In this document: positions 11,302 to 41,729 of the stretch, one piece after another
Numbering within the stretch: position 1 is the first letter of the stretch
How the letters are laid out: every line of letters begins with the position of its first letter
DNA from: an uncultured Christensenella sp.
GTDB taxonomy: Bacteria > Bacillota > Clostridia > Christensenellales > UBA1242
DNA length: 64,000 bases
Direction: 5' to 3'
Assembly: GCA_964434265.1 (NCBI GenBank)
Contig: CAYSUK010000005.1
Location: 12,914-76,913 of the forward strand
Notes under the pieces: model-generated
Told to the model about the DNA's origin: nothing
The model's database searches: none
Seen by the model: the letters and a program-made list of their open reading frames with translations, nothing else
Program-made: the position numbers and the translations under genes

Positions 11302-11376
11302 TAAATCGCTAATGTAGTAATTGGCGATTTTTTCTATGGAAAAATCGTTTAATAATAAAAAGGAAGGGCAAAATAT

Positions 11377-11526: not shown

Positions 11527-11533
11527 TAACACT

Positions 11534-11560
11534 TTAAGTGCCTAAAACCTAGGCACTTAA
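11534..11560 (+). terminator. hairpin between rpmH and rnpA (terminator/attenuator)
   Basis: Perfect 10-bp stem TTAAGTGCCT / AGGCACTTAA with a 7-nt loop, followed by TTTGT. Confidence 0.5.
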
Positions 11561-11584
11561 TTTGTATACAAACAAGGTATTTAT

Positions 11585-13228: not shown

Positions 13229-13238
13229 GGAGAATATT

Positions 13239-13949
13239 ATGAGAAAGATAGAAGTTGTGTCCACATCGGTGGAAAAAGCCATTGAGAAAGGACTTATAAT
13301 GCTAGGCACTAGCAAAGAAAACGTAGACGTAAAAGTTTTGGAAGAAAACAGCATGCTTAAGAAAGTTAAGATTGAAATGACTGTTTATGCTGACGGCGAA
13401 GAACATGTTCCGACCGAACTCCCTACTTCACGTCCTAAGAAAGAAAAGAAAGTTGTAAAACAACGTAAAGAGCCAGCATATGATGCTGAGCAAAACAAAC
13501 TTACACTTGAAGTTGCGCGCAAATATATGGAAGGACTACTAAATGCGGCAGGACTTGAATACAATCTTAGTGTAGAAGAAGTAGACAAATACGTTCATGT
13601 AGTTGTGTCTGGTGCAAAAATGGGTAGCCTTATAGGTTATCACGGTGAAGGCATGGACGCTATCCAAATGCTTCTAAACCAATATGTAAAAGACCAAATA
13701 GACGGCTACGAACGTAAGGTATATCTTGATATCGAAGAGTATCGTTCTAAACGTGAAAATACTTTGAAGGACATGGCTACTCGCCTTGCTGAAAAAGTAA
13801 TTAAAAATCGTCGTAGTCTCAAACTCGAACCTATGACAAGTTATGACCGTCGCATTATACACACTCACCTTGCTGAAATGCCACATATCGACACTCACAG
13901 TGAAGGAACAGAGCCTCACAGATATCTTGTAATAGATTATGTAGATTAA
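13239..13949 (+). CDS. jag: Jag/KhpB RNA-binding protein (KH + R3H domains)
   Basis: Contains the KH-like LIGYHGEGMDAIQMLLNQ and the R3H region LEPMTSYDRRIIHTHL, and follows yidC as in conserved synteny. Confidence 0.88.
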   Translation: MRKIEVVSTSVEKAIEKGLIMLGTSKENVDVKVLEENSMLKKVKIEMTVYADGEEHVPTELPTSRPKKEKKVVKQRKEPAYDAEQNKLTLEVARKYMEGLLNAAGLEYNLSVEEVDKYVHVVVSGAKMGSLIGYHGEGMDAIQMLLNQYVKDQIDGYERKVYLDIEEYRSKRENTLKDMATRLAEKVIKNRRSLKLEPMTSYDRRIIHTHLAEMPHIDTHSEGTEPHRYLVIDYVD

Positions 13950-13952
13950 TAT

Positions 13953-13980
13953 AAAGACCCTATAAGGGGTCTTTTTCTTT
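13953..13980 (+). terminator. intrinsic terminator after jag
   Basis: AAAGACCC / GGGTCTTT stem followed by a T-run. Confidence 0.7.
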
Positions 13981-14049
13981 TGAAAGCTATTTTGAAAAAT
14001 AATATAAAAAGATATTCCAATTTTGTTTTGTTGTGATATAATATATCGT

Positions 14050-15399: not shown

Positions 15400-15401
15400 C
15401 T

Positions 15402-15851
15402 ATGGATAAATGGGATAAAAGATTTATGGATATGACACGACTTGTTGGTTCGTGGAGTTCGTGTATAAAGGACGATAGACATGTAGGGGCGATTATTGTT
15501 AAAAACAAACGTATTCTTACGACTGGTTATAATGGTGCTCCAAGCGGAATAAAAAGTTGTGCCGAACGTGGCGAGTGTATTCGTATGCGTGATGGTGTAC
15601 AATCTGGTACTCGTGCTGAGTATTGTTATGCTGTGCATGCCGAACAAAATGCTCTCATACAAGCTGCAAAACTTGGAATTAGTGTAGATGGGGCCACACT
15701 TTATTGTACCCACCAACCTTGTTCGATGTGTACTCGCCTTATAATCAATGCGGGAATCAGTCGTGTTGTGTATGGCGAAGGTTATCCTGACGAATTCTCT
15801 TTAAAACTATTTAATGAGTCGAATGTAATACTTGATAAATACGAGGAATAA
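15402..15851 (+). CDS. dCMP deaminase (ComEB-type cytidine/deoxycytidylate deaminase)
   Basis: Zinc motifs HAEQNAL and PCSMCTRLIINAG. The start is set at ATG 15402 (MDKWDKRF), 2 nt after the mnmE stop. Confidence 0.88.
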   Translation: MDKWDKRFMDMTRLVGSWSSCIKDDRHVGAIIVKNKRILTTGYNGAPSGIKSCAERGECIRMRDGVQSGTRAEYCYAVHAEQNALIQAAKLGISVDGATLYCTHQPCSMCTRLIINAGISRVVYGEGYPDEFSLKLFNESNVILDKYEE

Positions 15852-15852
15852 A

Positions 15853-17715: not shown

Positions 17716-17716
17716 C

Positions 17717-17746
17717 AAAAAATGGCTTTATAAAGCCATTTTTTGT
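17717..17746 (+). terminator. intrinsic terminator after mnmG
   Basis: Perfect palindrome AAAAAATGGCTTTA / TAAAGCCATTTTTT. Confidence 0.75.
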
Positions 17747-17772
17747 ATTTTAATAATTAATATAAGCATAAT

Positions 17773-17788
17773 TGTTTCACGTGAAACA
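17773..17788. promoter_or_regulatory. parS site 1 (16/16 TGTTTCACGTGAAACA)
   Basis: Exact symmetric parS 16-mer, embedded in a 24-bp perfect palindrome at 17769-17792. Confidence 0.85.
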
Positions 17789-17834
17789 ATTAATTATTGT
17801 TATTAATTTTAAATGCTGTATTTTTTGTTCTTAA

Positions 17835-17850
17835 AGTTTCACGTGAAACA
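17835..17850. promoter_or_regulatory. parS site 2 (15/16, AGTTTCACGTGAAACA)
   Basis: One outer-position mismatch. Confidence 0.7.
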
Positions 17851-17894
17851 AAAAGGATATGTAATCTTATAAAATATATGTAGTGTATTTCAAA

Positions 17895-17910
17895 TGTTTC
17901 ACGTGAAACA
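17895..17910. promoter_or_regulatory. parS site 3 (16/16)
   Basis: Exact 16-mer inside a 32-bp perfect palindrome at 17887-17918. Confidence 0.85.
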
Positions 17911-17987
17911 TTTGAAATGTTATTTGATAGGTATTGTATTTCTACATATAAATGATTTTTATAATAATTAGCTTAATCGCAACAGAT

Positions 17988-18003
17988 TGTTTCGCGTGAA
18001 ACA
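17988..18003. promoter_or_regulatory. parS site 4 (15/16, TGTTTCGCGTGAAACA)
   Basis: One core mismatch (A to G at position 7). Confidence 0.65.
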
Positions 18004-18087
18004 AACTATTTTGTTTTTTTATACTTGTTTTAATGGTATCTTTTAAATTGCCAAGTATTCTTAATTGTGTATTATTTAAATTCCTAA

Positions 18088-18103
18088 TGTTTCACGTGAA
18101 ACA
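18088..18103. promoter_or_regulatory. parS site 5 (16/16)
   Basis: Exact 16-mer. Confidence 0.85.
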
Positions 18104-18200
18104 GTATTATTATAATGATTTGCGTGAGTTGTCTTTTAATTGTGTTTGATATTAATTGTAAAATATGTCTATTAGGTGTCTTTGTGTTTTTAGAGTTAAA

Positions 18201-18216
18201 TGTTTCACGTGAAACA
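18201..18216. promoter_or_regulatory. parS site 6 (16/16)
   Basis: Exact 16-mer inside a 22-bp palindrome at 18198-18219. Confidence 0.85.
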
Positions 18217-18285
18217 TTTTTAAGGTTGTTTTGATTAAGGATTATTATCAAGTCTATTCTTTAGTAGTGTTGTGTATAATTACAT

Positions 18286-18301
18286 TGTTTCACGTGAAAC
18301 A
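18286..18301. promoter_or_regulatory. parS site 7 (16/16)
   Basis: Exact 16-mer inside a 30-bp perfect palindrome at 18279-18308. Confidence 0.85.
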
Positions 18302-18363
18302 ATGTAATACTAAATTGTTTTGTTTCGGTGATGGTTTGTGATATACTATGCATATAGGAGATA

Positions 18364-19068
18364 ATGATGAATTTTTTAGAACTTTTTAATAAATATGACA
18401 TTCATTTAAGCGAAGAACAATATTTAATGTTTGATACATATTATAATATTTTAATTGAAGAAAATGAAAAGTATAATCTTACAGCGATAACAGATAAAGA
18501 AGGAGTTTGGTTAAAACATTTTTTAGATAGTGTTTTACCATATAAACAATTTAAACCTAATAGTACGGTACTTGATATTGGTGGTGGGGCTGGATTTCCG
18601 TCAATTGCATTAAAGATTATTAGACCTGATTTAAAATTTGTAGTAATTGATAGCGTAGAAAAGAAGACTAGATTTATGCAAATGGTAATCAATAAACTAG
18701 GATTAAAAGAAATTGAAATATTACATGCTAGATGCGAAGATTTGGCAAAAGGACCTAAATATAGGGAAAATTTTGACTATGTAATAGCACGTGCTGTTGC
18801 TCCGCTTACTACATTGCTTGAGTATTGTGTGCCATTTTGTAAGATTAGTGGTCAATTAGTGTTGTATAAAGGTGATAGATATTTAGAAGAAATTAATAAT
18901 ACGACAAACACTTGTAGATTGCTTGATTGTAGCTTGATTAAAACAGATAAGATTTATGTGGCTGAAGGTGATTATACTAGATATTTTCTTGTTTATGGGA
19001 AGAATAGTTCTACATTATTAAAGTATCCACGTGGACAAAACAAACCTAGAAATAACCCATTAAACTAA
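18364..19068 (+). CDS. rsmG: 16S rRNA (guanine527-N7)-methyltransferase RsmG (GidB)
   Basis: Contains NLTAITDKEGVWLKHFLDS, the SAM motif VLDIGGGAGFPSIALKI, and VIARAVAP. It sits between mnmG and parA as in conserved synteny. Confidence 0.92.
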   Translation: MMNFLELFNKYDIHLSEEQYLMFDTYYNILIEENEKYNLTAITDKEGVWLKHFLDSVLPYKQFKPNSTVLDIGGGAGFPSIALKIIRPDLKFVVIDSVEKKTRFMQMVINKLGLKEIEILHARCEDLAKGPKYRENFDYVIARAVAPLTTLLEYCVPFCKISGQLVLYKGDRYLEEINNTTNTCRLLDCSLIKTDKIYVAEGDYTRYFLVYGKNSSTLLKYPRGQNKPRNNPLN

Positions 19069-29378: not shown

Positions 29379-32300
29379 ATGAAAAAGGAGAAAGTCAAAA
29401 AGACCAAACCTAAGAAAAAGTTTTCGCTATGGCGAATGCTTAGTTATGTAGGCTGTTATGTGTTTGTCACATTTGCAGTGGCTTTTGTTGTGGTGTCGGT
29501 AAATAGCTCGACATATTCTTTCACGCCTCCTTCACTTGACGACAATGAGACTGTGCAAAGTTCGCTTCTTGGAAATATGGTATCAAATATCATGACCGTC
29601 GAAGACATGACGACTTCGCTCGGACTTACTATTCAAAACGGCGACACAAACATAAATATCACAGGCGATGTCCAATTAAAAATATACGAAGAATTTTCCG
29701 GAGTCGAAGCAAAAGCAAATCTTTCTGTAGGTTATAATGGGACAGTTGTTGATGTGCAAGTAATGTATACTGACAAGTTGTACTTGACACTTGATAATCG
29801 TACATTTGTGCTTGATTTAAATGATGGATTTGAGGGTATTTTTGGAATACTAAATGTATTAGGTGTCGAATTAGACCTAAATCTTGACGACTTAATGGGC
29901 AGTCTTGATATGAGTATACTTGATACACTTGGCGACTATATTACTGAGTCAACTTTGGAAAATGGTTATGCACTTTCTATTGACTATAATGGGCTGTCAG
30001 CGACAGTTGTGCTTGATAGCGAATACAATATAGTTTCGGTGTCAGCACCATCGCTTAGTTTTGATGGCTGGGATATCTCACTAAATCTTGGAGTAGAGTC
30101 GCAAAACCAAGGGCTTGTATTTGACGAAGTAGTGGGTGACACAAGCCTTAGCCCAATTTTCAGACTTGTCGAGTGTGGGCTAAACACATTTAAAGGCATA
30201 AATTATACAATAAACACAAATATAAATTATGACAAATACAACTTCGGTTTTGACGCTGTTGTAGATGGCAGTGATGCAAAACTTCTTACAAATATCAGCG
30301 GACAAAACTTAGCATTCTATCTAAAAGATGGCATAGGATATGGTGATTTTGGTGCTATTAAAATCAAAGGCGGCATGGACGATATAAACAAAGTAATTGA
30401 TATCGTGACCGACCTTGTTCCTGATGATATGATTCCGGATTTTGATATTGATATGGACATGGATACTATTCTTGGTCTTGTGCAAAAGGCAATTTCGCAA
30501 AACTGGAACATAGTAGGTGATGAAGATGGTCTCGCATTTGAGTTTGATGGCAATATCCTAAACATAACTTATCAAAACGACAAAATATCTAATATAGAAT
30601 TTGATATATGTGGTGTTACGGGTAGTATTAGCCTTGCAGAAAATACAAACAGTATTGTTGTGCCTGAGCAAAAATATATGCAAGTGGGCGACCTTGCCGA
30701 CTTTATCCGTCCTGTATATAATATAGTTTGCCTTGACCGAATAAATGCAACAGCAGATATCATGCTTGATGGCAAAACTTACGACTTAAATATTATGTTT
30801 GATAAAGCAACAAATAGGGTAAGTGCTAATACAAACGTATATAATAAGGTTGTCAAATTTGATTATTTTGACCACACTTTGTATCTTCAAATCGACGACG
30901 TAAGAGTATGCACTCCTACAAGCGATGTGATGGGGCTAGTGGTTTATGTATTGCAAAACTACTGTGGTGATATTAGTGTTGATGACCTAAAATCAGCATT
31001 TGAAAACGAACTTACACTTGATGTAGAAGCAAATAAATATAGCTTTGCATTTGGTGGTGTAAACTTAGATTTTGAAATCACAAACGATGAGATAAGTGGT
31101 CTTTCAGTTGTTGTTGGGGATATATGTGCAGAGATGACTTTGACTTACAATGACATGACTCCACTTGTTGATATTGATGTAGATGCATATACTACACTTG
31201 ACGTAACAATGGAAAATCTCCAATATATATTTGGTCTTGTGAAAGAATATATTGAAGGTGGCGAATATAATTTTGATATTGACTTTGAGTACGGCGAGTA
31301 TGCACTTAGCGGATATATCGGTCTAAACAATAATGATTTGGCATGCGACCTTAATATATCGGCATTTGGATATGATGTTCGCATAATTGTGAGTGACAAA
31401 ATCGGTCGAGTATATATAAAAGACCTTGCAATATCTTGCGAGTATGACACTTTGGCTGGTTTGGTCGCATATGTATTTAAAACTTTGGATATAAACATAG
31501 ATGTTGATAAATATCTTGCAAATTTGCCAGAATTTGATGCACAAGCAATTGAAGACTTACTAAACAATGTGACTTTGTCATATACAAACAGTACTTTTGT
31601 AATCGGTTATGAAGATATCACACTAAATGTTAGACTTGGACTAAACACAATTAAAAATATCTTTATGACATATAAAGATTTTAGTGTAAATATCAAACCC
31701 ACATATGCAAAAAATGTTATTATTCCAAATGTAGAGTATATCTATATTGAAGATATTGTAGACATTTTAAATAGCGTAAAACCTATCATTCAAAACAAAT
31801 ATTTGACAGCAAATTTTGAAATAAATATAAATAATATTGAAGTGTCGGGTGTAATCAAGTTTGATTATACTGACATGCGATTGGAAGCTACAATACATGT
31901 ACTTGACCAAACAATAAATATCGATTATATCGACGGAAAAATATATATCGCATATGACGGAGTTAAACTGGCTTGCAAGACAGAAGATATACTTGACCTT
32001 ATTAAAGGATATATTGATATTGAAGACAAAATATCTGATTTAAAATCAGAAGATATTACTGCCGATGATATTCTTGACAAACTTGCACTACTAAGTATTA
32101 TCAAAACACAAAATGGTTTTGATATTACATACGACACTTATACATTCAAACTCACTCTTGCTGATGGTATACTAAGTGGTCTTACATATGGCGAAGATGT
32201 AAATATTACATTCGACCATAGTACTCCAGTATTTGAAAATATCGACACTAATGCATATCAATATGTAGACCTTACATACGCAAATGTAAGTAGTCTTGTC

Positions 32301-35300
32301 GAAAAAGTAAAAACATATATTGAAAGTGATGAGTACTATATCGACCTAAGCGCTTCGTACGGCGAGTATGGAGTAAATGGTTGGATAGGGCTAAAGAAAG
32401 GTCACATCGTGGGTCGACTTGAAAGCACAATCCTAAACAAACTACTTCAAATCGATATTGTAAAAGACGTCGTGTATATCGACTATGACGGACTAAAACT
32501 ACAATGTGCTTTGGCTGATTATTCAAAAATTGCTGAACTACTACAAAGCGAGTGGAATATCACAATCCCAGACTTAGACCTTGTAACTCCACTCACAATG
32601 TTATACACAGATACAAACATTACATTTGACGACATACAAAGTATCTTAAACAAACTTACTATATCGAATACAGGCATGACACTACATATCGAGTATGAAA
32701 GAGTAAGTGCAAGTATCGACCTTGCTAATTACAAAGTAAATAGCGTGGTTGTGCAATATGACGACCTTAGAGCTATATTAAAACCAACTACCGCTCACAC
32801 GAACAATATCTCTGGCGAGTATATTAAATTAGTTGATGTAATAGATTTAGTAGAAGTTGTGCTTCCTATTATTGAGAACAAACACCTCACAATGACAGTG
32901 TCGACAAACATAAAAGGTGTTGAGATTGGTGCAGTAGTTTCGCTTGATCATGCAAGCAAACAAGTAAATGTTGTACTTAATGTTTTGAATGAAACAATAA
33001 ATATTAGATATCAAAATGGCAATATATATATTGATTTTGATGGTGTCAAACTTGCTTGTTCGACAAGTGATATACTTGACCTTATCAAAGGATACATGCC
33101 TGATGCAGATATCGACGAAATGTTGTCGGGTAAAACAATTGAAGAGACAGTGAATGATGTTTTGGATATATTGAGAGAAATATCTCTTTCGGGTACATCA
33201 AATGGTTTTGAAATCGGTTATGCCGAACACTTATTTAATCTTGAAATAACAAACAATATTTTAACTAGCCTTACATATGGCGAAGATGTAAACATTACAT
33301 TTGATCATAGCGCTCCAGTGTTTGAAGAAATCGATACTAATGCATATCAATATGTAGACCTTACATATACAAATGTAAGTAGCCTTGTCGACCAAGTAAA
33401 AACATATATTGAGAGTGATGAGTACTATATCGACCTAAGTGCTTCGTACGGCGAGTATGGAGTAAATGGTTGGATAGGGCTAGAGAAAGGTCACATCGTG
33501 GGTCGACTTGAAAGCACAATCCTAAACAAACTACTTCAAATCGATATTGTAAAAGACGTCGTTTATATCGACTATGACGGACTAAAACTACAATGTGCTT
33601 TGGCAGATTATTCAAAAATTGCTGAACTACTACAAAGTGAATGGAATATCACAATCCCAGATTTAGACCTTGTAACTCCGCTCACAATGTTAGACACAGA
33701 TACAAACATCACACTTGACGATGTGCAAAGTATCTTAAACAAACTTACTATATCAAATACAGGTATGACACTACATGTTGAGTATGAAAGAGTGAGTGCA
33801 AGTATTGACCTTGCTAATTACAAAGTAAATAGCATAGTTGTACAATATGATGACCTTAGAGCGACACTAAAACCAACCACCGCACACACAAACAATATCT
33901 CTGGCGAGTATATTGACATTGGAAGTTTGACAAACGTGGCTAGAGCCATTAATAAATCAATGGCAAATATGACTATGAGTGGTGTGCTTACAGTGGATAT
34001 TGTGTTTGCAAATGAAGTAAATACTTTGAATATAAACTATGGCATTACATACAAAGACAAAGATTTGAGAGTGTATGGAAACTTCACATTCAAAGGACTA
34101 AATGTAAATTTGTATTATTTTGACCGCACAATATATCTTGACGTTGTAGGCATGAAAATTTATGCAAGCATTGACGACTATGAAGATATTATTGCATGGC
34201 TAAATAAGACATTCGAACTAAATATAGATATTGAAAAAATAAAAGACAGCACTGACCTATCGTTTGACGATATCAAACTTGATTTTGTCAAAGATTGGAC
34301 TATTACAGACGAATATATAAGTGCTGATGTGTTTGAAAATATTCACCTTGACGTGTACTATGGCGACACAATCGAGAAAGTTGTGTTTGAAGCGGGCGAT
34401 AAAGGTGCAACTATTGTTTGCACATCATTTGATGCACTTACATTTGATAGTATTGATAAGACACAATACAGCAAATATACTATTGTAACAAATACTATTG
34501 ATGATATCCTAAATACAATTAAGAAAAAGTCATTTGATATATCGGCGGTTGCAAGAGTATTTGAAAATGACCAAACTACATACAATGCGGCCGTGACTCT
34601 TGCATTTGACTTTGAAAATCACTTCAAAGCATATGGCGAAGCAAATGTAGTAGACTTACTCGATGAAAATGGCTCAGTTAACTTTGTCGCATCTTGGGAC
34701 AAATACAGCCTAGACGACAATCGCGACTATATATTCGTAAATTACAATGGCATGAAACTTCGCATGAATAGCGATGCGCTCAAAGAAGTGTTGGTACTTG
34801 GATTGCAAATACTAGGAGTTGACCCAAGCATACTAGGATTTTTGGAAGATGTCAGTGACGACTTTAAGGTTGATTCGTCAAATCTAAACAATATTATGCC
34901 AAATCTCGATATGGGAAATCCGCTTAATATGTTGAGATACATAAAATCGCTAAACCTTACAAACAGCCAATTTACACTTGTGCTTGATGGTTCGTTCTTT
35001 GGCGATGGTGTGGCCGATATGGAAATTGTGCTTCATACAAACAATGGCACAATCGTAGGGCTTGACCTAAACAATATATTTGTAGGCGGAACAGAAACAT
35101 TTAATCTTGCAATTTCGCTAAATCCATTTGAATCAGTGCCAGAAATACAAGACAAAGTAAACTACATGGATCTTAGCGGTGCAAGCCAACTTCTAAAAGC
35201 GGTTATAAACACATCTAGCAAAAAGAGTTATCACATCACAGGTGCGGTAAAACTAAATGCGGCAAATCTTATTAAAAAGACTGTCGGAGTAGACATGGGT

Positions 35301-37475
35301 GTGGTGATAGGTGACGACGGCAAAACAATTATAGATGTTACACTATCAAATTATCCACTTTATGTCGGTGTAAACACCGAGTACTCAAATTATAGTGCAC
35401 CTATAAATCGTATGCGAACTATCAATATGCGATTTAAAGATGGTTATGCATATCTAAGAATGTATGATGCAAAATATTTGAGTGCTGGGACATACGAACG
35501 TATAAGTAAAGTCCCTGTGAGTTATTTGATACAAAACCTAAGTTATTACATGCAATACATTTTGGGCTTTACAGACAATATTCAAGCCGCAATAGACGAA
35601 GCCATAACAGCAAGCCAAAACTACACTGGGGCTACTGATTATAGCAATATACTTCTTGACTACAATCAAACAGACAATAAGCATTCGCTCACACTAAATT
35701 TGCAAGAACTTGCACACAATGACCAACTTGATACTATGGAAGTTGGACTAACGACAGTAAATAGTAGAGAGACGGGCAGAAAAGACATGTTGTATCGACT
35801 TGACATGAATGTTATTATGCTTGGCGACTTGATTAAAATCACAACAGATGACGAAGCTAATCTCAAACTTGTCGACCTAAATTCTACATACGACATGACA
35901 GAAGCAAATGCGTTTATCCAAAACTATGAAAATAGCGGATACGTGACCTTTGGCGAGTATGTAAGCGAAGGTGGCAAAACATTTAGTAAGTCAAACGACA
36001 AAGATGTTACCATTACATTCTACGACCAAGACAACACGGCGACTACTGTAAGTGGCAAAGTCGGAAGTCTAATAAATTATCCAAGTGTGACTGAGACACT
36101 TGCAGATGGCAGAAAGTTTAAGGGTTGGTATTATTATGCAAATAGTGATAAGACCAAACTCAAAGAGTGGACGCATAGAAACATGCCATTAAATAGCATG
36201 GAACTATATGGCATATGGGAAAACACATATACAGTGACACTTATCGACAATGACCAAACATATATGACATACAATCTATTTAAAGGTGAAAAACTAAATT
36301 TACCAGATATAGAAAACCAATTTGTCGAGACTGACGGAGTGCGAAGCGGTAAAGAATTTGCCGGTTGGTACGACGGAATACTAAAACGTGATGAGTTGTC
36401 TATCAAAACCGACGTTACACTTAAAGCACATTGGGCTGATGCAACATATTATCAAATCACATATATCGACGGCGACCAAACCACATATAAGTGGGTAAAA
36501 GAAGGTAGCCAAGTCGAAGTAGGTTCGAAGTCAAACTATATCGGCACATACGATGACGCACAAGTTGTGTTTGACTGGCGTGGTTGGTATAATGGTGACA
36601 CACAAATTACAAGTTTTGTAGCAGAAGCACCTATGACCCTTGTCGGGAAGTGGGAGATATGCAGTATGGATATGGCTCGCACACTCACTATAAAAGACGG
36701 CGACCAAGTTCTAAGTAGCACACCACAACTTATCGATTACAATATTGTTGTGCCAGAAAATGATAAAATTACATATGACACATGGTATTATCTTGATGCT
36801 GACCTTACTGAAAGATACTATATCGAAACTATGCCAGACTATGACTTAACTTTGTATATCGCAAATGTTTATACTGTTAGTATCAAATATGTCGATAGTA
36901 TCACAAACGGCGAAATCCGAACAAAGACTGAGACTTATCAAGTAAGACAAGGAACAGTTCTTGCAGATGTTTTGCCAGACCCAAGCAGATTTAATACACA
37001 CGGCACAGACGGTCAAATTATAAATATCTACGACGACAATATCCATCAAATATCAAACACATTTGAAGAATACACAACAATGTATGACAAAATGCCAAAC
37101 TGTGATTTTGATACAGAAGAATTGTGGATACATACTGACAGATATTATTATGACATCGTATTTGATACAAATTGGAATTATGAGCCAAGAATAATTTGGC
37201 CAAGTAATGCAAGCAATTATGTGGATTATCCTTCATTTACTCCTGAAACTATGAGAATACTTGAAGGTGAGACATTAGATTTGTCAGGTAGTGAGTACAA
37301 ACCTTCATGTACAATGAAAGGATCGTTTAAAACATATGATTACTCATGTTCGGGCTGGTCAACCACTATTCCTGATGATGGTAGTAATGGTGGCGGAAGT
37401 ACTAGTTATACAGTAAATGCTAATGATGCTACAAATGGTGTAATTACACTTTATGTATGTTGGGAAAAACAATAA
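29379..37475 (+). CDS. giant (2698 aa) N-terminally membrane-anchored repeat protein with C-terminal Listeria-Bacteroides-type (Flg_new-like) repeats
   Basis: An uninterrupted 8.1-kb ORF with an AAGGAG ribosome-binding site. The N-terminus is basic and followed by a TM segment (YVGCYVFVTFAVAFVVVSV). About 2100 aa consist of degenerate ~180-aa modules with the recurring block xIYIDYDGxKLxC..D...L. The last ~500 aa carry roughly six repeats with GWY/W..W signatures (FKGWYYY...LYGIWE, FAGWYDG...LKAHW, WRGWYNG...LVGKWE, CSGWST...LYVCWE). Confidence 0.85.
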   Translation: MKKEKVKKTKPKKKFSLWRMLSYVGCYVFVTFAVAFVVVSVNSSTYSFTPPSLDDNETVQSSLLGNMVSNIMTVEDMTTSLGLTIQNGDTNINITGDVQLKIYEEFSGVEAKANLSVGYNGTVVDVQVMYTDKLYLTLDNRTFVLDLNDGFEGIFGILNVLGVELDLNLDDLMGSLDMSILDTLGDYITESTLENGYALSIDYNGLSATVVLDSEYNIVSVSAPSLSFDGWDISLNLGVESQNQGLVFDEVVGDTSLSPIFRLVECGLNTFKGINYTINTNINYDKYNFGFDAVVDGSDAKLLTNISGQNLAFYLKDGIGYGDFGAIKIKGGMDDINKVIDIVTDLVPDDMIPDFDIDMDMDTILGLVQKAISQNWNIVGDEDGLAFEFDGNILNITYQNDKISNIEFDICGVTGSISLAENTNSIVVPEQKYMQVGDLADFIRPVYNIVCLDRINATADIMLDGKTYDLNIMFDKATNRVSANTNVYNKVVKFDYFDHTLYLQIDDVRVCTPTSDVMGLVVYVLQNYCGDISVDDLKSAFENELTLDVEANKYSFAFGGVNLDFEITNDEISGLSVVVGDICAEMTLTYNDMTPLVDIDVDAYTTLDVTMENLQYIFGLVKEYIEGGEYNFDIDFEYGEYALSGYIGLNNNDLACDLNISAFGYDVRIIVSDKIGRVYIKDLAISCEYDTLAGLVAYVFKTLDINIDVDKYLANLPEFDAQAIEDLLNNVTLSYTNSTFVIGYEDITLNVRLGLNTIKNIFMTYKDFSVNIKPTYAKNVIIPNVEYIYIEDIVDILNSVKPIIQNKYLTANFEININNIEVSGVIKFDYTDMRLEATIHVLDQTINIDYIDGKIYIAYDGVKLACKTEDILDLIKGYIDIEDKISDLKSEDITADDILDKLALLSIIKTQNGFDITYDTYTFKLTLADGILSGLTYGEDVNITFDHSTPVFENIDTNAYQYVDLTYANVSSLVEKVKTYIESDEYYIDLSASYGEYGVNGWIGLKKGHIVGRLESTILNKLLQIDIVKDVVYIDYDGLKLQCALADYSKIAELLQSEWNITIPDLDLVTPLTMLYTDTNITFDDIQSILNKLTISNTGMTLHIEYERVSASIDLANYKVNSVVVQYDDLRAILKPTTAHTNNISGEYIKLVDVIDLVEVVLPIIENKHLTMTVSTNIKGVEIGAVVSLDHASKQVNVVLNVLNETINIRYQNGNIYIDFDGVKLACSTSDILDLIKGYMPDADIDEMLSGKTIEETVNDVLDILREISLSGTSNGFEIGYAEHLFNLEITNNILTSLTYGEDVNITFDHSAPVFEEIDTNAYQYVDLTYTNVSSLVDQVKTYIESDEYYIDLSASYGEYGVNGWIGLEKGHIVGRLESTILNKLLQIDIVKDVVYIDYDGLKLQCALADYSKIAELLQSEWNITIPDLDLVTPLTMLDTDTNITLDDVQSILNKLTISNTGMTLHVEYERVSASIDLANYKVNSIVVQYDDLRATLKPTTAHTNNISGEYIDIGSLTNVARAINKSMANMTMSGVLTVDIVFANEVNTLNINYGITYKDKDLRVYGNFTFKGLNVNLYYFDRTIYLDVVGMKIYASIDDYEDIIAWLNKTFELNIDIEKIKDSTDLSFDDIKLDFVKDWTITDEYISADVFENIHLDVYYGDTIEKVVFEAGDKGATIVCTSFDALTFDSIDKTQYSKYTIVTNTIDDILNTIKKKSFDISAVARVFENDQTTYNAAVTLAFDFENHFKAYGEANVVDLLDENGSVNFVASWDKYSLDDNRDYIFVNYNGMKLRMNSDALKEVLVLGLQILGVDPSILGFLEDVSDDFKVDSSNLNNIMPNLDMGNPLNMLRYIKSLNLTNSQFTLVLDGSFFGDGVADMEIVLHTNNGTIVGLDLNNIFVGGTETFNLAISLNPFESVPEIQDKVNYMDLSGASQLLKAVINTSSKKSYHITGAVKLNAANLIKKTVGVDMGVVIGDDGKTIIDVTLSNYPLYVGVNTEYSNYSAPINRMRTINMRFKDGYAYLRMYDAKYLSAGTYERISKVPVSYLIQNLSYYMQYILGFTDNIQAAIDEAITASQNYTGATDYSNILLDYNQTDNKHSLTLNLQELAHNDQLDTMEVGLTTVNSRETGRKDMLYRLDMNVIMLGDLIKITTDDEANLKLVDLNSTYDMTEANAFIQNYENSGYVTFGEYVSEGGKTFSKSNDKDVTITFYDQDNTATTVSGKVGSLINYPSVTETLADGRKFKGWYYYANSDKTKLKEWTHRNMPLNSMELYGIWENTYTVTLIDNDQTYMTYNLFKGEKLNLPDIENQFVETDGVRSGKEFAGWYDGILKRDELSIKTDVTLKAHWADATYYQITYIDGDQTTYKWVKEGSQVEVGSKSNYIGTYDDAQVVFDWRGWYNGDTQITSFVAEAPMTLVGKWEICSMDMARTLTIKDGDQVLSSTPQLIDYNIVVPENDKITYDTWYYLDADLTERYYIETMPDYDLTLYIANVYTVSIKYVDSITNGEIRTKTETYQVRQGTVLADVLPDPSRFNTHGTDGQIINIYDDNIHQISNTFEEYTTMYDKMPNCDFDTEELWIHTDRYYYDIVFDTNWNYEPRIIWPSNASNYVDYPSFTPETMRILEGETLDLSGSEYKPSCTMKGSFKTYDYSCSGWSTTIPDDGSNGGGSTSYTVNANDATNGVITLYVCWEKQ
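32181..33914 (+). repeat. 1089-bp-period tandem duplication inside the giant gene
   Basis: Segments 32181-32825 and 33270-33914 are near-identical, with about a dozen amino-acid differences over 215 residues. An older, diverged unit lies at about 31100-32180. The track's antisense ORFs 32272-32526 and 33361-33615 mirror each other at the same offset. Confidence 0.9.
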
Positions 37476-38105: not shown

Positions 38106-38141
38106 CAAAAAAAGATGTATCAAAATTGATACATCTTTTTT
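38106..38141. terminator. bidirectional terminator (TetR gene / cls)
   Basis: AAAAAAAGATGTATC / GATACATCTTTTTT. Confidence 0.75.
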
Positions 38142-38149: not shown

Positions 38150-39667
38150 TTAGAAAAATGGTGAGACAAATCGTAAAATTGCTGAGCAGAATTTTTCAGT
38201 GAGTTTACGTTTTTTCATGTCTTTTAAAGTGATAAGGTGACTACTGCCAAGTACTTGTGTAGCATCTTTTTTGATGTCGTTTAGTGTAGGGCTATCATAA
38301 AGCATAACACCATTTTCAAAGTGTAGATATAGACTTCTAAAATCCATATTGACTGTACCTATCGATGCAATGTGGTCGTCTATCATGACAGTTTTTGCAT
38401 GTACAAACCCGTCAAATTCGTATATCTTTATGCCCGATTTTATAAGGTCGGTAAATCGTCCACGTGCAAGATAGAATGCACTTTTCTTATCTGGGTTTTT
38501 AGGGAAAACAATGTTTACTTCGACACCGCTTTTTGTTGCAAGTTTGAGTGCGGTAACCATTTCTTCGTCAAGTATAAGATATGGTGTTGTGATATAGATA
38601 CTTTTTTGTGCTGAGTTTATGAGATTTAGATAGATGTTTCGAGCGACTGGCTCATATGTAAGGGGAGATGTTCCGTATGGTTGGATACACTCTTTGCCTT
38701 TGATTTTTTCTTCGCTCTTGTATTTTTCATATTCGAGTCTAGCGCTAGTCGAGAAGTGCCAACTGTTTATAAACATAACGACCATGCTCCATACAGCATC
38801 ACCAGAAATCTTTATTCCACAATCTTTCCATGTGCCGTATTTGTCTACGATATTTGCATATTCGTCGGCTATGTTTATTCCGCCAGTAAGTGCATGTATT
38901 CCGTCGACTACTAGTATTTTGCGGTGGTCGCGAAAATTGATAAATGAATTGTATCTGCCAGTTACCTTGTTAAATGGCAAAGCTTCGATATTGTAGTTTG
39001 CAAGTTTTTTGAAAGTATTTTTGTCACTAAATTTATCAAGACAACCCATGTCGTCATAGAGTATTTTTATCTCTACACCTTCACGTGCTTTTTCTTTAAG
39101 TAAATTAAACAATTCGTCCCAAATTTGACCTTCTTTAAAGATAAAGTATTCCATGAAAATATATTTTTTGGCTTTCTTTATCATGTCAAACATTTCTTTA
39201 AAGTATGTCTCGCCATCATGAAGATATTTTGTGGTACAATTTTCATATATTGGCATGTTTATTGTGTTTGCGATATATTGCGATTGCTTAAATGCAGTCA
39301 TGTCCGATTTTTTCAAATTGCTAAATTGCTCAGTGTTTGATGGCAAATAACTGCTAGATAGAAAAGCCATGTTTTGCCAGTCTTTACGTTTTTTGCGAGT
39401 ACCGTGCGAGCAGTTTGCTCTGAGATATAACACACAGCCAAACACCGGTGCTATAAATATAAACAGTCCCCACATGAGTTTGTATAGTGGCTGTGACTTG
39501 CTCTTTATTAGAAATATACTAGCAAACAACAATACGATAAATGCTGCTATCCCATAAAAAACAGAGTTTAAAAAATACGATATAAGCACGAAAATTGCTA
39601 TATTTATAACAAGTGAAAATATTAAGATAAATCGCGATGACGCGAAAAAGTTTAGAATTTTTTTCAT
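38150..39667 (-). CDS. cls: cardiolipin synthase (two PLD HKD motifs)
   Basis: Two N-terminal TM segments, then HRKILVVDG...GGINIADEY and HAKTVMIDD...GTVNMDFRS. The start is set at ATG 39667. Confidence 0.92.
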   Translation of the reverse strand: MKKILNFFASSRFILIFSLVINIAIFVLISYFLNSVFYGIAAFIVLLFASIFLIKSKSQPLYKLMWGLFIFIAPVFGCVLYLRANCSHGTRKKRKDWQNMAFLSSSYLPSNTEQFSNLKKSDMTAFKQSQYIANTINMPIYENCTTKYLHDGETYFKEMFDMIKKAKKYIFMEYFIFKEGQIWDELFNLLKEKAREGVEIKILYDDMGCLDKFSDKNTFKKLANYNIEALPFNKVTGRYNSFINFRDHRKILVVDGIHALTGGINIADEYANIVDKYGTWKDCGIKISGDAVWSMVVMFINSWHFSTSARLEYEKYKSEEKIKGKECIQPYGTSPLTYEPVARNIYLNLINSAQKSIYITTPYLILDEEMVTALKLATKSGVEVNIVFPKNPDKKSAFYLARGRFTDLIKSGIKIYEFDGFVHAKTVMIDDHIASIGTVNMDFRSLYLHFENGVMLYDSPTLNDIKKDATQVLGSSHLITLKDMKKRKLTEKFCSAILRFVSPFF

Positions 39668-39756
39668 ACTCAAATTTCTCTATATATAGTATAACACATC
39701 TTTTTTATTCAATCAAAGATTTAGAGACAAATCCATCGTACTTGCGACAATATTTT

Positions 39757-40905
39757 TTAGTTTTTTTGCGATTGCTCAACATTTTCGTTTATGGTCATTT
39801 CAATTTGTTTGAAATTTTGTGCTTTCTCTAATTCTTTTTGAGCACGATTAAGTTCGCGTCTAACATCAGCTGTCGATTTGTAGAATGCACCACCGTCGTG
39901 GGATTGGAAGTATACGCCAACAATTCGACGACTGCTGGTGTTTAGAAGTGTGTAAGCTGCACGAATACGCGCACCGCCCACAACGTGTTGTACAACCTTA
40001 GAATTTGACTCTATAAATACATTATATGCTCTAATGCGACCTTGGTTGTCAATAATAGTAATTCCGTCGTAGTTTAACATGGTCATAAATACATCGGCAA
40101 AGGCACGGAGTTTGCTTTCGTTAAAACTTTTTGTCTGTAAAAATAGTTTTCCAAACTCTATTGGCTCGGGCAACCATGTCCCGTCACTGAATATCCCTTT
40201 GGTGTCTTTAAAGTCTTTGTCCACAACAAGACAAATTGTTCCGCTTAGTGATTTAAAGCAGTTGTTGAAGATATTTTCAAGTATGTTTTTAATACTTTCA
40301 AGTTTGCGTGGAGTGGTCTTTAGTTTTGATACACTATCATTAACAAAACGTTTGATTGTGTCGTCCCACTTGGACTCCTTTTTGTCTTCGACAGAAAAAT
40401 TTATATCAAGGTGAGTACCTCTGACACCTTTGATACTTACTACTCCGTTTGATAAAACATTTAGATACACAAGTTTTGATTTTTGCTTTAATGATTCTAC
40501 TGTGTGTTCGTCAAATATTTGTGCTTCGAGCGAGCGGTCTTTAAGCGAATTGATACATTTTACAAGTCCGTATTCTACGTTTTCGCTTCCATAATTTATA
40601 TACACAGTCCAACCGCTTTTGCAAAAACACATTAGCGCTTTTAGACGTTGGTTGAAGTTTACACTTTGTTCGTCGATATAAAATGGGATTTTGACACTAT
40701 CAGGCACGTTTTTGACAATAGCACCTATGTTGTTGGTCATAAGAAGCATTGGCCTTATCTTTTCGCCTTCTTCTTCCCAACGCACAAGTCGGTAAAAAAT
40801 ATTTAAAAGCCTGTCGACATCGCCAGACGATAAGGTCTTAAATTCGTTTGCGAATAGTTCGCGAATAGATTTTGTTGCGTCATCGAAAAAAATGTTTGTT
40901 TCCAT
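39757..40905 (-). CDS. diadenylate-cyclase-fold (DisA_N/DAC-like) protein with degenerate catalytic motifs and a ~220-aa N-terminal region
   Basis: The C-terminal half GTICLVVDKD...LNYDGITIIDNQGRIRAYNVFIE...VGGARIRAAYTLL...IVGVYFQSHDGGAFY follows the DAC order (GALIV..., HDGAVII..G.I.AA, GTRHRAA, VVSEETG). DGI replaces DGA, and RIR replaces RHR. Confidence 0.6.
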   Translation of the reverse strand: METNIFFDDATKSIRELFANEFKTLSSGDVDRLLNIFYRLVRWEEEGEKIRPMLLMTNNIGAIVKNVPDSVKIPFYIDEQSVNFNQRLKALMCFCKSGWTVYINYGSENVEYGLVKCINSLKDRSLEAQIFDEHTVESLKQKSKLVYLNVLSNGVVSIKGVRGTHLDINFSVEDKKESKWDDTIKRFVNDSVSKLKTTPRKLESIKNILENIFNNCFKSLSGTICLVVDKDFKDTKGIFSDGTWLPEPIEFGKLFLQTKSFNESKLRAFADVFMTMLNYDGITIIDNQGRIRAYNVFIESNSKVVQHVVGGARIRAAYTLLNTSSRRIVGVYFQSHDGGAFYKSTADVRRELNRAQKELEKAQNFKQIEMTINENVEQSQKN

Positions 40906-41036
40906 ACCTTCGTCCCTCGTATTTTAATTATAACATAATAACTATTTTTTTTACAATAACAAAATCACAATTTTTCGACATTTTTTAGACTAGTTTTTCA
41001 AAAATAAATTTTATAATGGAAAAATATAAAGATAAG

Positions 41037-41102
41037 GTGTAAAGTGATTGAAAAAAAGTGGAAAAATGTATTATAATAATCAAAATATTAGGAGACAATA
41101 TG
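41037..41102 (+). repeat. copy A of a duplicated ~66-bp promoter/5'-leader (TTGAAA ... TATAAT ... AGGAGA ... ATG)
   Basis: GTGTAAAGTGATTGAAAAAAAGTGGAAAAATGTATTATAATAATCAAAATATTAGGAGACAATATG. It differs from copy B at about 6 positions. Confidence 0.85.
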
Positions 41103-41729
41103 AATATTGAAAGATTGAATGAACAATTTAAAAACGACTTTCTTGCAAATAAAAATTATCATTCGCTTGAAAAGTATGTTATGTCTGAATTATTGACACC
41201 GATTTCGGATTACTATAATGCGGTTGAAATAGTTTGCAAAAACCTTAATTTAATTAAAGGATTAGATCTTTTGTTTGTGGCCACATATCTAAATTCAGAA
41301 TATTCTATGGGTTATGATAATTTGTTGGAAATACTTAATTCTAAAATAAATGAGACAGATGATTTAAATAAAGCTATTATTTATTATCTAAATGCTCATA
41401 ATATTATTTGCAATAACAAAAAATGGAAAAACGACAAGGAGTGCTTGTTAAATTTAAAAAAGTCGGTTGATTTATCAAAAGGTTTTAATTTTGCGAACAA
41501 TAGGTTTTATTTGGCACAATGTGTGGACACGCAAACCGCGAAAATATTTACTAAAGAGTACATAAGTAATGTGACTGAAAGGCATACAGAAACTTCGTTA
41601 AAAAACTTACCTGAAGAGTACTGGTTTTCATCGCTTAGTTTTGTGGAAGAATTTATCTTGGGTACATCAATATCAGAAATTGTTTACAAAAATAAAATAG
41701 AAAATTTGACCAAACAGGGTTTGATTTAA
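41100..41729 (+). CDS. hypothetical helical protein (210 aa)
   Basis: The start is set at ATG 41100 (MNIERLNEQF), after an AGGAGA ribosome-binding site. The track's GTG at 41058 lies inside the promoter. No motif recognised. Confidence 0.6.
   Translation: MNIERLNEQFKNDFLANKNYHSLEKYVMSELLTPISDYYNAVEIVCKNLNLIKGLDLLFVATYLNSEYSMGYDNLLEILNSKINETDDLNKAIIYYLNAHNIICNNKKWKNDKECLLNLKKSVDLSKGFNFANNRFYLAQCVDTQTAKIFTKEYISNVTERHTETSLKNLPEEYWFSSLSFVEEFILGTSISEIVYKNKIENLTKQGLI

What the first reader, a model, noticed from the sequence alone, without database searches (positions are those of the whole stretch)
39757..40905. DAC-fold protein with altered DGA and RHR motifs, possibly a tandem pseudo-dimer, upstream of cardiolipin synthase
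The C-terminal ~130 aa match the order of diadenylate cyclase (DisA_N) blocks. However, the two signature motifs are changed: LNYDGITIID where HDGAVII is expected, and GGARIRAAY where GTRHRAA is expected. The N-terminal ~220 aa contain a second, weaker look-alike (LMCFCKSGWTVYINYGSENVEYGLV ... KLVYLNVLSNGVVSI), so the protein may be an internally duplicated DAC fold. It lies 83 bp upstream of cls on the same strand. Inference: it may be an inactive c-di-AMP-related sensor or regulator, or a cyclase with altered nucleotide chemistry, and it may be linked to membrane-lipid homeostasis.
Basis: partly seen in the sequence, partly recalled or inferred. Interest (0 to 1): 0.65.

Follow-up and report, generated by a model that had tools for sequence, protein, structure and literature searches.

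The report
Divergent solo DAC-fold cyclase gene
This gut Clostridia gene encodes a very divergent relative of the enzymes that make the bacterial messenger c-di-AMP. Its unnamed family normally travels as a two-gene cassette in mobile, defence-rich DNA, but here the gene sits alone in the core chromosome next to a cardiolipin synthase gene.

Summary
The ORF at 39757-40905 (-) is real: 382 aa, a good ribosome-binding site and a promoter-like site. It is conserved in 206 species-level genomes of uncultured gut and rumen Christensenellales-like Clostridia.

**C-terminal half (about residues 199-345).** This is a genuine but Pfam-invisible DAC-superfamily domain.
- Foldseek's top 15 PDB hits are DisA, DacA and CdaA.
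- A diverse family profile hits CdaS and DisA with block-for-block motif alignment.
- 9 of 46 relatives weakly hit PF02457.
- The motifs are DG-I (for DGA), GGA-R-x-R-A (for GT-RHR-A) and S-x-D-G. Their core residues are invariant across a family that averages 25% identity. This favours a working nucleotide site, not a dead one.

**N-terminal half.** It is a confidently modelled domain with no structural relative in the PDB and no detectable similarity to DAC. The "tandem pseudo-dimer" idea is not supported.

**Family context.** In all 11 distant relatives examined (Bacillus cereus group, Oribacterium, Vibrio and Agrobacterium plasmids, Armatimonadota), the gene is followed at once, mostly overlapping, by an unknown 410-440-aa partner. 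These cassettes often lie beside transposons, restriction-modification (RM), toxin-antitoxin (TA) or CBASS genes. The window's lineage has lost that partner.

**cls link.** cls lies directly downstream in 22 of 75 informative relatives, and one gene further in 3 more. This is ancestral synteny, not a proven functional link.

Whether the genome has a canonical cdaA could not be tested, because the genome search was shut.

The parts
39757..40905 (-). Gene X: 382-aa soluble two-domain protein (N-terminal unknown domain, then a divergent DAC-like domain and a charged C-terminal helix).
   Evidence: ORF. 627 homologues, 580 clusters at 50% identity, and 206 GTDB species. No transmembrane segment: the highest Kyte-Doolittle 19-residue mean is 0.93. 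GC is 37.4% against 35.3% for the window.
40372..40905 (-). N-terminal domain (residues 1-178): an alpha/beta domain with no known relative. E45, E46 (the YEEEG motif), K89 and G113 are invariant family-wide; P52 and W99 are nearly so.
   Evidence: AF2 pLDDT 88, pTM 0.85. Foldseek against the PDB gives nothing significant and no DAC hit. hhalign against the C-domain and against CdaA is not significant.
40765..40776 (-). E44-E45-E46-G47, the family-wide 'Y-E-E-E-G' motif of the N-domain.
   Evidence: E45 and E46 are invariant in 46 diverse members that average 25% identity.
39871..40311 (-). Divergent DAC (DisA_N-like) domain, residues about 199-345.
   Evidence: Foldseek top hits are DisA (9y4s, 3c1y, 4yxm), DacA (6gyw) and CdaA (9g0g). 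Weak PF02457 hits occur in 9 of 46 relatives. hhalign gives P = 0.0013. UniRef names the distant member WP_099684107 a 'DAC domain-containing protein'.
40060..40068 (-). D280-G281-I282, the counterpart of the DGA motif (Lmo CdaA D171-G172-A173).
   Evidence: Alignments. D280 and G281 are invariant. The third position is I, M, L, V or A across the family.
39955..39978 (-). G310-G311-A312-R313-I314-R315-A316-A317, the counterpart of G-T-R-H-R-A-A (Lmo CdaA T202-R203-H204-R205).
   Evidence: Position, alignment. G311, R313 and R315 are invariant, A312 is nearly invariant, and position 314 varies (I, L, K, R and others).
39892..39903 (-). S335-H336-D337-G338, the likely counterpart of the S-E-E-T-G strand end of DAC (Lmo S222 and E224, the metal ligand).
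   Evidence: S335 and G338 are invariant, and position 337 is D or E. The equivalence with SEETG is inferred from its position after the RHR helix. No tool alignment covers it.
39760..39870 (-). Charged C-terminal helix (residues 346-382). It is specific to the Christensenellales clade, longer and K/E-rich in the 431-aa variants, and absent from the cassette-type relatives, which are about 350 aa.
   Evidence: Helix 345-381 with low pLDDT. Alignments.
40927..40956 (-). Promoter-like site (TTGTAA, 18 nt, TG-n-TATAAT) upstream of X, followed by a GAGGGA/GAAGG ribosome-binding site.
   Evidence: This is a consensus match only.
38150..39673 (-). cls, cardiolipin synthase. It lies 83 bp downstream of X on the same strand.
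   Evidence: TIGR04265 at 337 bits (cut-off 290), plus PLDc_2 x2 and PLDc_N.
39688..39716 (-). Weak promoter-like site (TTGATT, 17 nt, TG-n-TATACT) in the X-cls spacer. There is no terminator-like hairpin between the genes.
38108..38141 (.). Bidirectional terminator-like hairpin (15-bp stem) after cls, between cls and the convergent TetR-like gene.

Best explanation
Gene X encodes a cytosolic two-domain protein. Its C-terminal half is a real but highly divergent member of the diadenylate-cyclase (DAC / DisA_N) superfamily. Its N-terminal half is an undescribed alpha/beta domain, probably a regulatory or sensor domain.

X belongs to a large unnamed family. Outside this gut lineage, X is always followed immediately, mostly with an overlap suggesting translational coupling, by an unknown 410-440-aa partner, Y. 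The pair sits sporadically on plasmids and genomic islands among transposons, RM, TA and CBASS genes. That pattern fits an accessory, probably anti-phage, nucleotide-signalling cassette.

In gut and rumen Christensenellales-like Clostridia the gene has become a stable chromosomal gene. In the window's sub-lineage Y has been lost, leaving X directly upstream of cls.

**Most likely mechanism (inferred).** Two DAC-like domains pair head-to-head. D280 and D337 hold the metal, and R313, R315 and S335 hold the phosphates. NTPs are then condensed into a cyclic or linear dinucleotide signal, under the control of the N-domain. The product is unknown. It could be c-di-AMP or, as in PanS, something else.

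**My odds for each step.**
- True DAC homologue: 0.9.
- Catalytically active: about 0.55.
- Cassette relatives act in phage defence or conflict: about 0.6.
- A specific functional tie to cardiolipin synthesis: about 0.15.
For: **Fold and homology.**
- Foldseek ranks 1-15 are DisA, DacA or CdaA, with probability 0.97-1.0.
- Profile A2's best PDB sequence hits are CdaS and DisA, with HGT/GAL, DGIT/DGAV and GGARxRA/GTRHRA aligned in order.
- 9 of 46 relatives weakly hit PF02457.
- hhalign of the C-domain against CdaA gives P = 0.0013.
- UniRef labels one member a DAC domain-containing protein.

**Active-site conservation.** In 46 members at 25% mean identity, the invariant C-domain residues are G222, D280, G281, G311, R313, R315, S335 and G338, which lie in the motifs aligned or inferred to the DAC blocks. 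They are equally invariant in the partner-less clade.

**Precedent.** PanS has DGF and GGR motifs, is active, and makes 3'3'-cUA or c-di-AMP (10.64898/2026.08.10.743927).

**Cassette.** Y follows X at once (overlapping in 9, gaps of 1 and 12 nt in the other 2) in 11 of 11 distant members examined and in 14 Christensenellales loci (overlap usually 4 nt). The Y proteins are mutually homologous.

**Cassette contexts.**
- Tn7-like element beside smpB.
- Integrase, IS21 and resolvase.
- Transposases and an AAA_15 ATPase.
- HipA, HicB and Zeta toxin genes.
- A BsuBI/PstI RM system and IS3 on a Vibrio plasmid.
- A PADLOC-confirmed CD-NTase plus patatin CBASS on an Agrobacterium plasmid.
- A patatin gene.

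**Domestication.**
- 206 species, all uncultured Clostridia or Christensenellales.
- Housekeeping synteny: serS-lemA-DUF2207, pheT, yqeY, rdgB.
- Native GC content.
- The X tree follows the synteny groups.
Against: - The window protein does not reach any Pfam or NCBIfam DAC model. Profile-to-sequence E-values are marginal (0.01).
- The His of RHR is not conserved. The Thr before it is Ala, and the Ala of DGA is a bulky Ile. All of these could impair or change catalysis.
- No activity, product, receptor or phenotype is known for any family member.
- The defence role of the cassette rests only on neighbourhoods: 11 sampled loci, and only 2 of 72,556 plasmids carry it. PADLOC has no model for X or Y.
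- Only one of the five full-length AF2 models was confident (pLDDT 80, against 57-67 for the rest). Foldseek's whole-chain TM-scores are low (0.21-0.23) because the match is local.
- I could not check whether the genome also has cdaA or disA, or a copy of Y elsewhere.

Confidence: 0.6

Rival explanations
1. X is a catalytically dead DAC-fold protein. It acts as a nucleotide-binding receptor or regulator, for example by sensing c-di-AMP made by a canonical CdaA, and possibly tunes envelope or lipid homeostasis.
For: The signature residues are altered: A173 becomes Ile, T202 becomes Ala, and H204 is variable. There is no Pfam hit. Degenerate DAC-like domains do exist: DACNH of CdaG is described as distantly DAC-related without catalytic residues (PMC13640721).
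Against: Degenerate domains lose their catalytic residues. Here the metal-binding and phosphate-binding positions (D280, R313, R315, S335, D/E337) are the most conserved residues of the whole family. Altered DGF and GGR motifs are active in PanS. No DAC domain is known to act as a receptor.
Confidence: 0.22
2. X is the housekeeping, possibly the only, DAC-superfamily cyclase of these small-genome gut Clostridia. It would replace CdaA and make the essential second messenger that controls osmotic and envelope functions, with cls as part of its regulon or operon.
For: X is present in 206 species with strong conservation, in core-genome synteny close to oriC (dnaA at 6513-7865). An X-Y-cls or X-cls order occurs on both sides of the X tree. 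No canonical DGA/RHR gene is present in the 64-kb window or in 1.1 Mb of relatives' loci.
Against: The absence of cdaA or disA from the genome was not tested, because the genome search was shut. The window and the loci cover only a small part of each genome. There is no ydaO or other c-di-AMP riboswitch in the window. cls adjacency is lost in two thirds of relatives, and cls has its own promoter-like site. The relatives in the Bacillus cereus group are sporadic, strain-level accessory genes.
Confidence: 0.15
3. The DAC resemblance is convergent or due to chance, and X is an unrelated alpha/beta protein of unknown function.
For: No single sequence-based test reaches a strong E-value (0.01 and 0.012, 5.5e-4, P = 0.0013). 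The Foldseek rmsd is high (about 11 A over 190 columns).
Against: Four independent tests (fold, profile-to-sequence, Pfam on relatives, profile-to-profile) all point to the same family. They align the same three motif blocks in the same order, and those blocks hold the family's invariant residues.
Confidence: 0.04

Closest known systems
Canonical diadenylate cyclases CdaA, DisA and CdaS (Pfam PF02457, DAC/DisA_N)
   Same: The alpha/beta fold is the same (Foldseek). The order of blocks is the same: helix, then the GALI strand, the DGA strand pair, the RHR helix and the SEETG strand. The Asp-Gly, the two Arg and the Ser are retained.
   Different: X falls below the Pfam threshold. It has DGI for DGA, GA-R-x-R for GT-RHR and SxDG for SEETG. 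The DAC domain is C-terminal to a novel 178-aa domain. X lacks the CdaA transmembrane helices and the cdaR-glmM operon, the DisA helical and HhH domains, and the CdaS N-terminal helices.
PanS of Panoptoo/PanDA (minimal DAC with a 2TM-beta effector; bioRxiv 10.64898/2026.08.10.743927 and PMC13640721)
   Same: Both are divergent DACs with altered signature motifs (DGF and GGR in PanS). Both are two-gene cassettes in defence islands, often beside CBASS. One X-Y cassette is adjacent to a patatin plus CD-NTase CBASS.
   Different: PanS is about 150 aa, DAC only, and is detected by Pfam. Its partner is a 2TM beta-barrel. X has an extra N-domain and is Pfam-invisible. Its partner Y is a 410-440-aa protein with no clear membrane helix (highest hydropathy means 1.3-1.9) and no known domain.
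CdaG / DS-2C of CBASS-DAC (DACNG-DACNH-DAC, about 550-575 aa; PMC13069673, PMC13640721; Galperin 2023, J Bacteriol 205:e00023-23, not readable here)
   Same: Both are multi-domain DACs with uncharacterised N-terminal modules, and both are associated with defence loci.
   Different: None of 46 X members hits DACNG or DACNH among the families listed. X is 340-380 aa. It is not embedded in a CBASS operon and has its own partner, Y.

Membership tests
DAC / DisA_N (PF02457) | Match to the Pfam model at or above the gathering score | tested here: not met
   The window protein gives no hit at E <= 1. 9 of 46 relatives give weak hits, best E 5.5e-4.
DAC / DisA_N (PF02457) | DAC alpha/beta fold | tested here: met
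   Foldseek ranks 1-15 are DisA, DacA or CdaA with probability 0.97-1.0. TM normalised to the 151-aa DacA target is 0.46.
DAC / DisA_N (PF02457) | DGA motif | tested here: inconclusive
   D280 and G281 are invariant. The third residue is Ile in the window and I, M, L, V or A across the family. PanS is active with DGF.
DAC / DisA_N (PF02457) | RHR motif | tested here: not met
   The motif is R313-I314-R315. Both Arg are invariant, the His position varies, and the preceding Thr is Ala.
DAC / DisA_N (PF02457) | Synthesis of c-di-AMP from two ATP by a head-to-head dimer | not testable with these tools
   This needs biochemistry or a multimer model.
CdaA | Three N-terminal transmembrane helices and a cdaA-cdaR-glmM operon | tested here: not met
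   The highest hydropathy mean is 0.93, so there is no transmembrane helix. The neighbours are cls, a 223-aa orphan and serS.
DisA | N-terminal DAC, helical spine and C-terminal HhH domain | tested here: not met
   The DAC-like domain is C-terminal, and there is no HhH or DisA-linker Pfam hit.
CdaG / DS-2C (CBASS-DAC) | DACNG and DACNH N-terminal domains; about 550 aa | tested here: not met
   No DACNG or DACNH hit appears for the window protein at E <= 1 or among the families listed for 46 members at E <= 10. X is 382 aa.
PanS (Panoptoo / PanDA) | Minimal DAC of about 150 aa, in an operon with a 2TM-beta effector | tested here: not met
   X has two domains. Neither cls nor Y is a 2TM beta-barrel.
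Unnamed X-Y cassette family (this report) | N-domain with YEEEG, K and W-YG motifs, plus a DAC-like domain with DG, GGARxRA and SxDG | tested here: met
   All these invariant residues are present in the window protein.
Unnamed X-Y cassette family (this report) | Partner gene Y (410-440 aa) immediately downstream, overlapping or within 12 nt | tested here: not met
   cls follows X, and tblastn finds no Y homologue anywhere in the 64-kb window. The rest of the genome was not searchable.

The most novel reading that the evidence does not exclude
X was domesticated from a mobile defence cassette and is now the only DAC-superfamily enzyme of these gut Christensenellales-like bacteria. On this reading it makes a housekeeping second messenger, perhaps not c-di-AMP, that governs envelope and membrane-lipid (cardiolipin) homeostasis. 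The cassette form, X-Y, would be a third, Pfam-invisible class of DAC-based anti-phage signalling, with a new type of effector or receptor.
Probability: 0.15. Interest if true: 0.85.

Novelty: new variant of a known kind. Interest (0 to 1): 0.6.

Why it matters
DAC enzymes were long thought to make only c-di-AMP, for osmotic and cell-wall control. In 2026 two classes of DAC (PanS and CdaG) were shown to act in anti-phage signalling and to make other dinucleotides. Both classes were found through their Pfam signature.

The family described here is invisible to Pfam. It has a new N-terminal domain and a new 410-440-aa partner. It spans Bacillota, Pseudomonadota and Armatimonadota, so it may be an overlooked third class.

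The partner-less chromosomal branch is fixed in more than 200 species of gut Christensenellales-like Clostridia. It offers a natural case of a conflict-system enzyme being recruited to, or retained for, a core cellular role. It raises a concrete, testable question: what nucleotide does this enzyme make, and what reads that signal?

Tried and rejected
**Direct family searches.**
- Pfam, NCBIfam and PADLOC scans of X gave nothing.
- A single-sequence search and a search with the close-clade profile A1 against PDB sequences gave nothing relevant. Only the diverse profile A2 reached CdaS and DisA.

**Internal duplication (N-domain as a second DAC).** Rejected.
- hhalign of N against C gives probability below 1%.
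- hhalign of N against CdaA gives P = 0.19.
- The separate N-domain model (pLDDT 88) has no DAC hit in Foldseek. Its weak hits to ferredoxin-like folds (sAC, GGDEF, ACT, PII) are not significant.

**Signs of c-di-AMP signalling nearby.**
- There is no Rfam hit in the window, and so no ydaO riboswitch.
- There is no canonical DGA/RHR ORF in the window or in 1.1 Mb of fetched loci.

**Searches that failed or found little.**
- The whole-genome search for cdaA, disA and Y was shut.
- The search for related loci with the diverse alignment failed because no conserved stretch was long enough. It was rerun with A1.
- Public sequencing runs gave only two low-share metagenome DNA runs and no RNA, so there is no expression evidence.
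- No family member was found in phages, and only two in plasmids.
- Sequence analysis of Y gave nothing: Pfam, PADLOC and a PDB profile search all failed, and there is no catalytic-looking invariant residue.
- Galperin's 2023 classification of DACs into 22 families could not be read. I cannot exclude that X corresponds to one of its families.

**Defence-type PLD reading of cls.** Rejected. The gene passes the cardiolipin synthase equivalog cut-off.
Full report
**1. The observation.** The ORF 39757-40905 (-) exists and encodes 382 aa.
- It has a promoter-like site (TTGTAA, 18 nt, TGnTATAAT) and a GAGGGA/GAAGG ribosome-binding site upstream.
- cls follows 83 bp downstream on the same strand. It passes the cardiolipin-synthase equivalog TIGR04265 at 337 bits against a cut-off of 290.
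- The spacer holds a weak promoter-like site and no terminator. A strong bidirectional hairpin follows cls.
- The window lies near the replication origin, with dnaA, dnaN, yidC, jag, mnmE and mnmG at 6.5-17.7 kb.

**2. Is it a DAC domain?** Direct searches fail.
- There is no Pfam, NCBIfam or PADLOC hit.
- There is no PDB sequence hit with the single sequence or with a close-clade profile.

The protein is nevertheless strongly conserved: 627 homologues and 580 clusters at 50% identity. Four independent tests then converge on DAC.
- (i) An AF2 model (best model pLDDT 80) has DisA from M. tuberculosis, T. maritima and M. smegmatis and DacA from S. aureus as ranks 1-15, with probability 0.97-1.0; B. 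subtilis CdaA is rank 17 (probability 0.85).
- (ii) A profile of 46 diverse members at 25% mean identity has B. cereus CdaS (2fb5, E 0.01) and T. maritima DisA (3c1y, E 0.012) as its two best PDB sequence hits. The alignment pairs HGTiilVV with GALIVV, DGItv with DGAvl and GGARkRA with GTRHRA.
- (iii) PF02457 is the only Pfam family hit by several members: 9 of 46, best E 5.5e-4.
- (iv) hhalign of the C-domain profile against L. monocytogenes and B. subtilis CdaA gives P = 0.0013 over 102 columns that span all blocks. I verified those two sequences against PDB 6hvl/4rv7 and 6huw.

UniRef already labels one distant member (Bacillus fungorum WP_099684107) a 'DAC domain-containing protein'.

In L. 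monocytogenes CdaA numbering, the residues map as follows:
- D280 = D171, G281 = G172, I282 = A173.
- A312 = T202, R313 = R203, I314 = H204, R315 = R205.
- By position only (my inference), S335 = S222 and D337 is roughly E224.

**3. Dead or alive?** Across the 46 diverse members, the invariant C-domain residues are G222, D280, G281, G311, R313, R315, S335 and G338; these lie in the motifs aligned or inferred to the DAC blocks. H221, G310 and A312 are nearly invariant, and position 337 is D or E.
- The same holds within the partner-less Christensenellales clade.
- Pseudo-enzymes usually lose such residues.
- Ragucci et al. (bioRxiv 10.64898/2026.08.10.743927) show that PanS carries DGF and GGR in place of DGA and GTR, yet is active and makes 3'3'-cUA or c-di-AMP. 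Mutating those motifs abolishes its activity.

I therefore favour an active nucleotide cyclase of unknown product (about 0.55) over a dead binder (about 0.22). This remains inference.

**4. The N-terminal half.** The proposed internal duplication is not supported.
- hhalign of N against C gives probability below 1%, and N against CdaA gives P = 0.19.
- A separate, confident model of residues 1-178 (pLDDT 88, pTM 0.85) finds nothing significant in the PDB. The best hit has E 0.12 and probability 0.08, and there is no DAC structure in the top 50. The weak hits are ferredoxin-like folds.
- The domain has its own family-wide invariant residues (E45, E46, K89, G113; P52 and W99 nearly invariant). 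It therefore has a function of its own, most simply regulation or sensing.
- The protein has no membrane segment.

**5. Family context.** In genome contigs the close clade occurs in 206 species. All are uncultured Clostridia, Christensenellales or 'Christensenella sp.' MAGs from gut and rumen. I called and clustered the genes of 83 non-redundant loci and built a tree of X.
- cls is directly downstream on the same strand in 22 loci, with gaps of 2-264 nt.
- An unknown 408-425-aa gene, Y, overlaps the stop of X (usually by 4 nt) in 14 loci. In three of these cls comes next, on the same strand in two and on the opposite strand in one.
- 39 loci have other neighbours, and 8 are truncated.
- The Y-bearing clades lie on one side of the tree. 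The X-cls clades lie on the other side and are paraphyletic to a clade that lost cls.
- This pattern fits an ancestral X-Y-cls order, with later loss of Y or of the cls adjacency.
- The upstream neighbours are housekeeping genes that differ between clades: serS-lemA-DUF2207, pheT, yqeY, and rdgB with a LysM-GH18 gene.

**6. Beyond this clade, Y is constant.** Y is homologous across lineages (blastp down to 4e-95 among distant cassettes, and 5e-34 against the Christensenellales Y). It follows X immediately (overlapping in 9, gaps of 1 and 12 nt in the other 2) in 11 of 11 distant members examined:

| Member | Neighbouring genes |
|---|---|
| Bacillus fungorum | smpB and a Tn7-like TniQ/TnsA/TniB element |
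| Gut-metagenome contigs | sugar-metabolism genes |
| Metagenome contig | SMC_N/AAA_15 and HATPase_c_3 genes upstream |
| Metagenome contig | integrase, IS21 helper and resolvase |
| L091 | miscellaneous genes |
| Vibrio sp. dhg plasmid | BsuBI/PstI-type RM system and IS3 |
| A. tumefaciens plasmid pAtCG920 | divergent to a CD-NTase (PADLOC Cyclase, 8.6e-120) plus patatin (1.1e-154) CBASS, near a polymorphic toxin |
| Bacillus sp. L27 | transposases, AAA_15 ATPase, integrase |
| Oribacterium-type contig | HipA, HicB and Zeta toxin genes |
| Armatimonadota MAG | a further unknown 416-aa gene |
| Large metagenome contig | divergent patatin gene |

- Members occur sporadically in single strains of the Bacillus cereus group.
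- Only 2 of 72,556 plasmids, and no phage, carry X.
- Y has no Pfam, PADLOC or PDB sequence match, no clear membrane helix, and few invariant residues.
- The sporadic, island-borne, tightly linked two-gene pattern is typical of accessory conflict or defence modules, but no experiment supports this.
- The 2026 papers on defence DACs found their two classes, PanS and CdaG/DS-2C, by Pfam signature. That approach would have missed this family.
- Galperin's 22-family DAC classification could not be read.

**7. The window copy.** X here is a 'solo' copy.
- There is no Y anywhere in the 64 kb.
- Its GC is native, at 37.4% against 35.3% for the window.
- It carries a clade-specific charged C-terminal helix.
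- Its nearest relative is 83% identical and also followed by cls.
- The cls link is real as synteny, found in about one third of relatives, but it is not shown to be functional.
- I could not test whether the genome also encodes cdaA, disA or Y elsewhere, because the genome search was shut. There is no canonical DAC motif in the window or in 1.1 Mb of relatives' loci, and no c-di-AMP riboswitch in the window. Neither result is informative for whole genomes.

**8. Earlier notes of this scan.** After I reached the above, a look-up showed two earlier follow-ups on other genomes with the same reading of this family. They are AI notes and not independent evidence. I re-derived the cassette, the island context and the cls adjacency here. 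Their 'only DAC-fold enzyme' idea remains untested.

**9. Verdict.**
- The finding is real, and the DAC-fold call is right.
- The pseudo-dimer idea is wrong.
- The lipid link is weak.
- The more interesting result is that X belongs to an undescribed, Pfam-invisible, two-gene DAC-like family, with a domesticated partner-less branch in gut Clostridia.
- Novelty: a new variant of a known kind.
- Interest: 0.6.

Noticed in passing
window 41058-41729 (+): A 223-aa orphan ORF lies between X and serS. Its GC is only 27.4% against 35.3% for the window. It has no Pfam, NCBIfam or PADLOC hit and no counterpart at this position in the closest relative (L007). It is probably a recent insertion.
   Followed up: partly
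window 29379-37475 (+): A giant 2,698-aa ORF with long internal repeats (two near-identical blocks of about 350 aa) and a signal-anchor-like N-terminus. It is probably a surface or adhesin-type protein.
   Followed up: no
window 6513-19068: The origin-region gene set is here: dnaA, dnaN, yidC, jag, mnmE, a ComEB/dCMP-deaminase-like gene overlapping the end of mnmE, mnmG and rsmG. GC skew changes sign near 6-8 kb, so X lies about 33 kb from oriC.
   Followed up: partly
L043, L045, L048, L051, L053, L057, L059, L062, L066, L071, L074, L077-L079; L087:9058-10353; L088:9049-10371; L091:1349-2665; L092:1900-3225; L093:7983-9314: Partner protein Y (408-443 aa) has no known domain and few invariant residues (L33, N220, P316, with G333 and D369 nearly invariant). 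It overlaps the stop of X. It is an uncharacterised family that deserves its own structure prediction.
   Followed up: partly
L093 4728-9314 (A. tumefaciens pAtCG920) and L097 6630-10400: The X-Y cassette lies divergently next to a patatin-like phospholipase gene in two unrelated replicons. In one case the patatin is part of a type I CBASS with a CD-NTase. Either patatin is shared as an effector, or X-Y guards CBASS in a Panoptes-like way.
   Followed up: partly
L055, L060, L065, L085 (gene directly downstream of X): In one Christensenellales sub-clade, X is followed by a conserved gene of about 103 aa with no Pfam hit.
   Followed up: no
L026 and L039: Two different contigs of one MAG (CAYSUG01) each carry an X-cls pair. 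This is either a true duplication or strain mixing in the bin.
   Followed up: no
L092 3225-3839 (Vibrio sp. dhg plasmid): A third gene of 204 aa with no PADLOC hit abuts the end of Y (its start codon shares one base with Y's stop). Some cassettes may have three genes. The Armatimonadota locus L096 also has an extra unknown 416-aa gene after Y.
   Followed up: no
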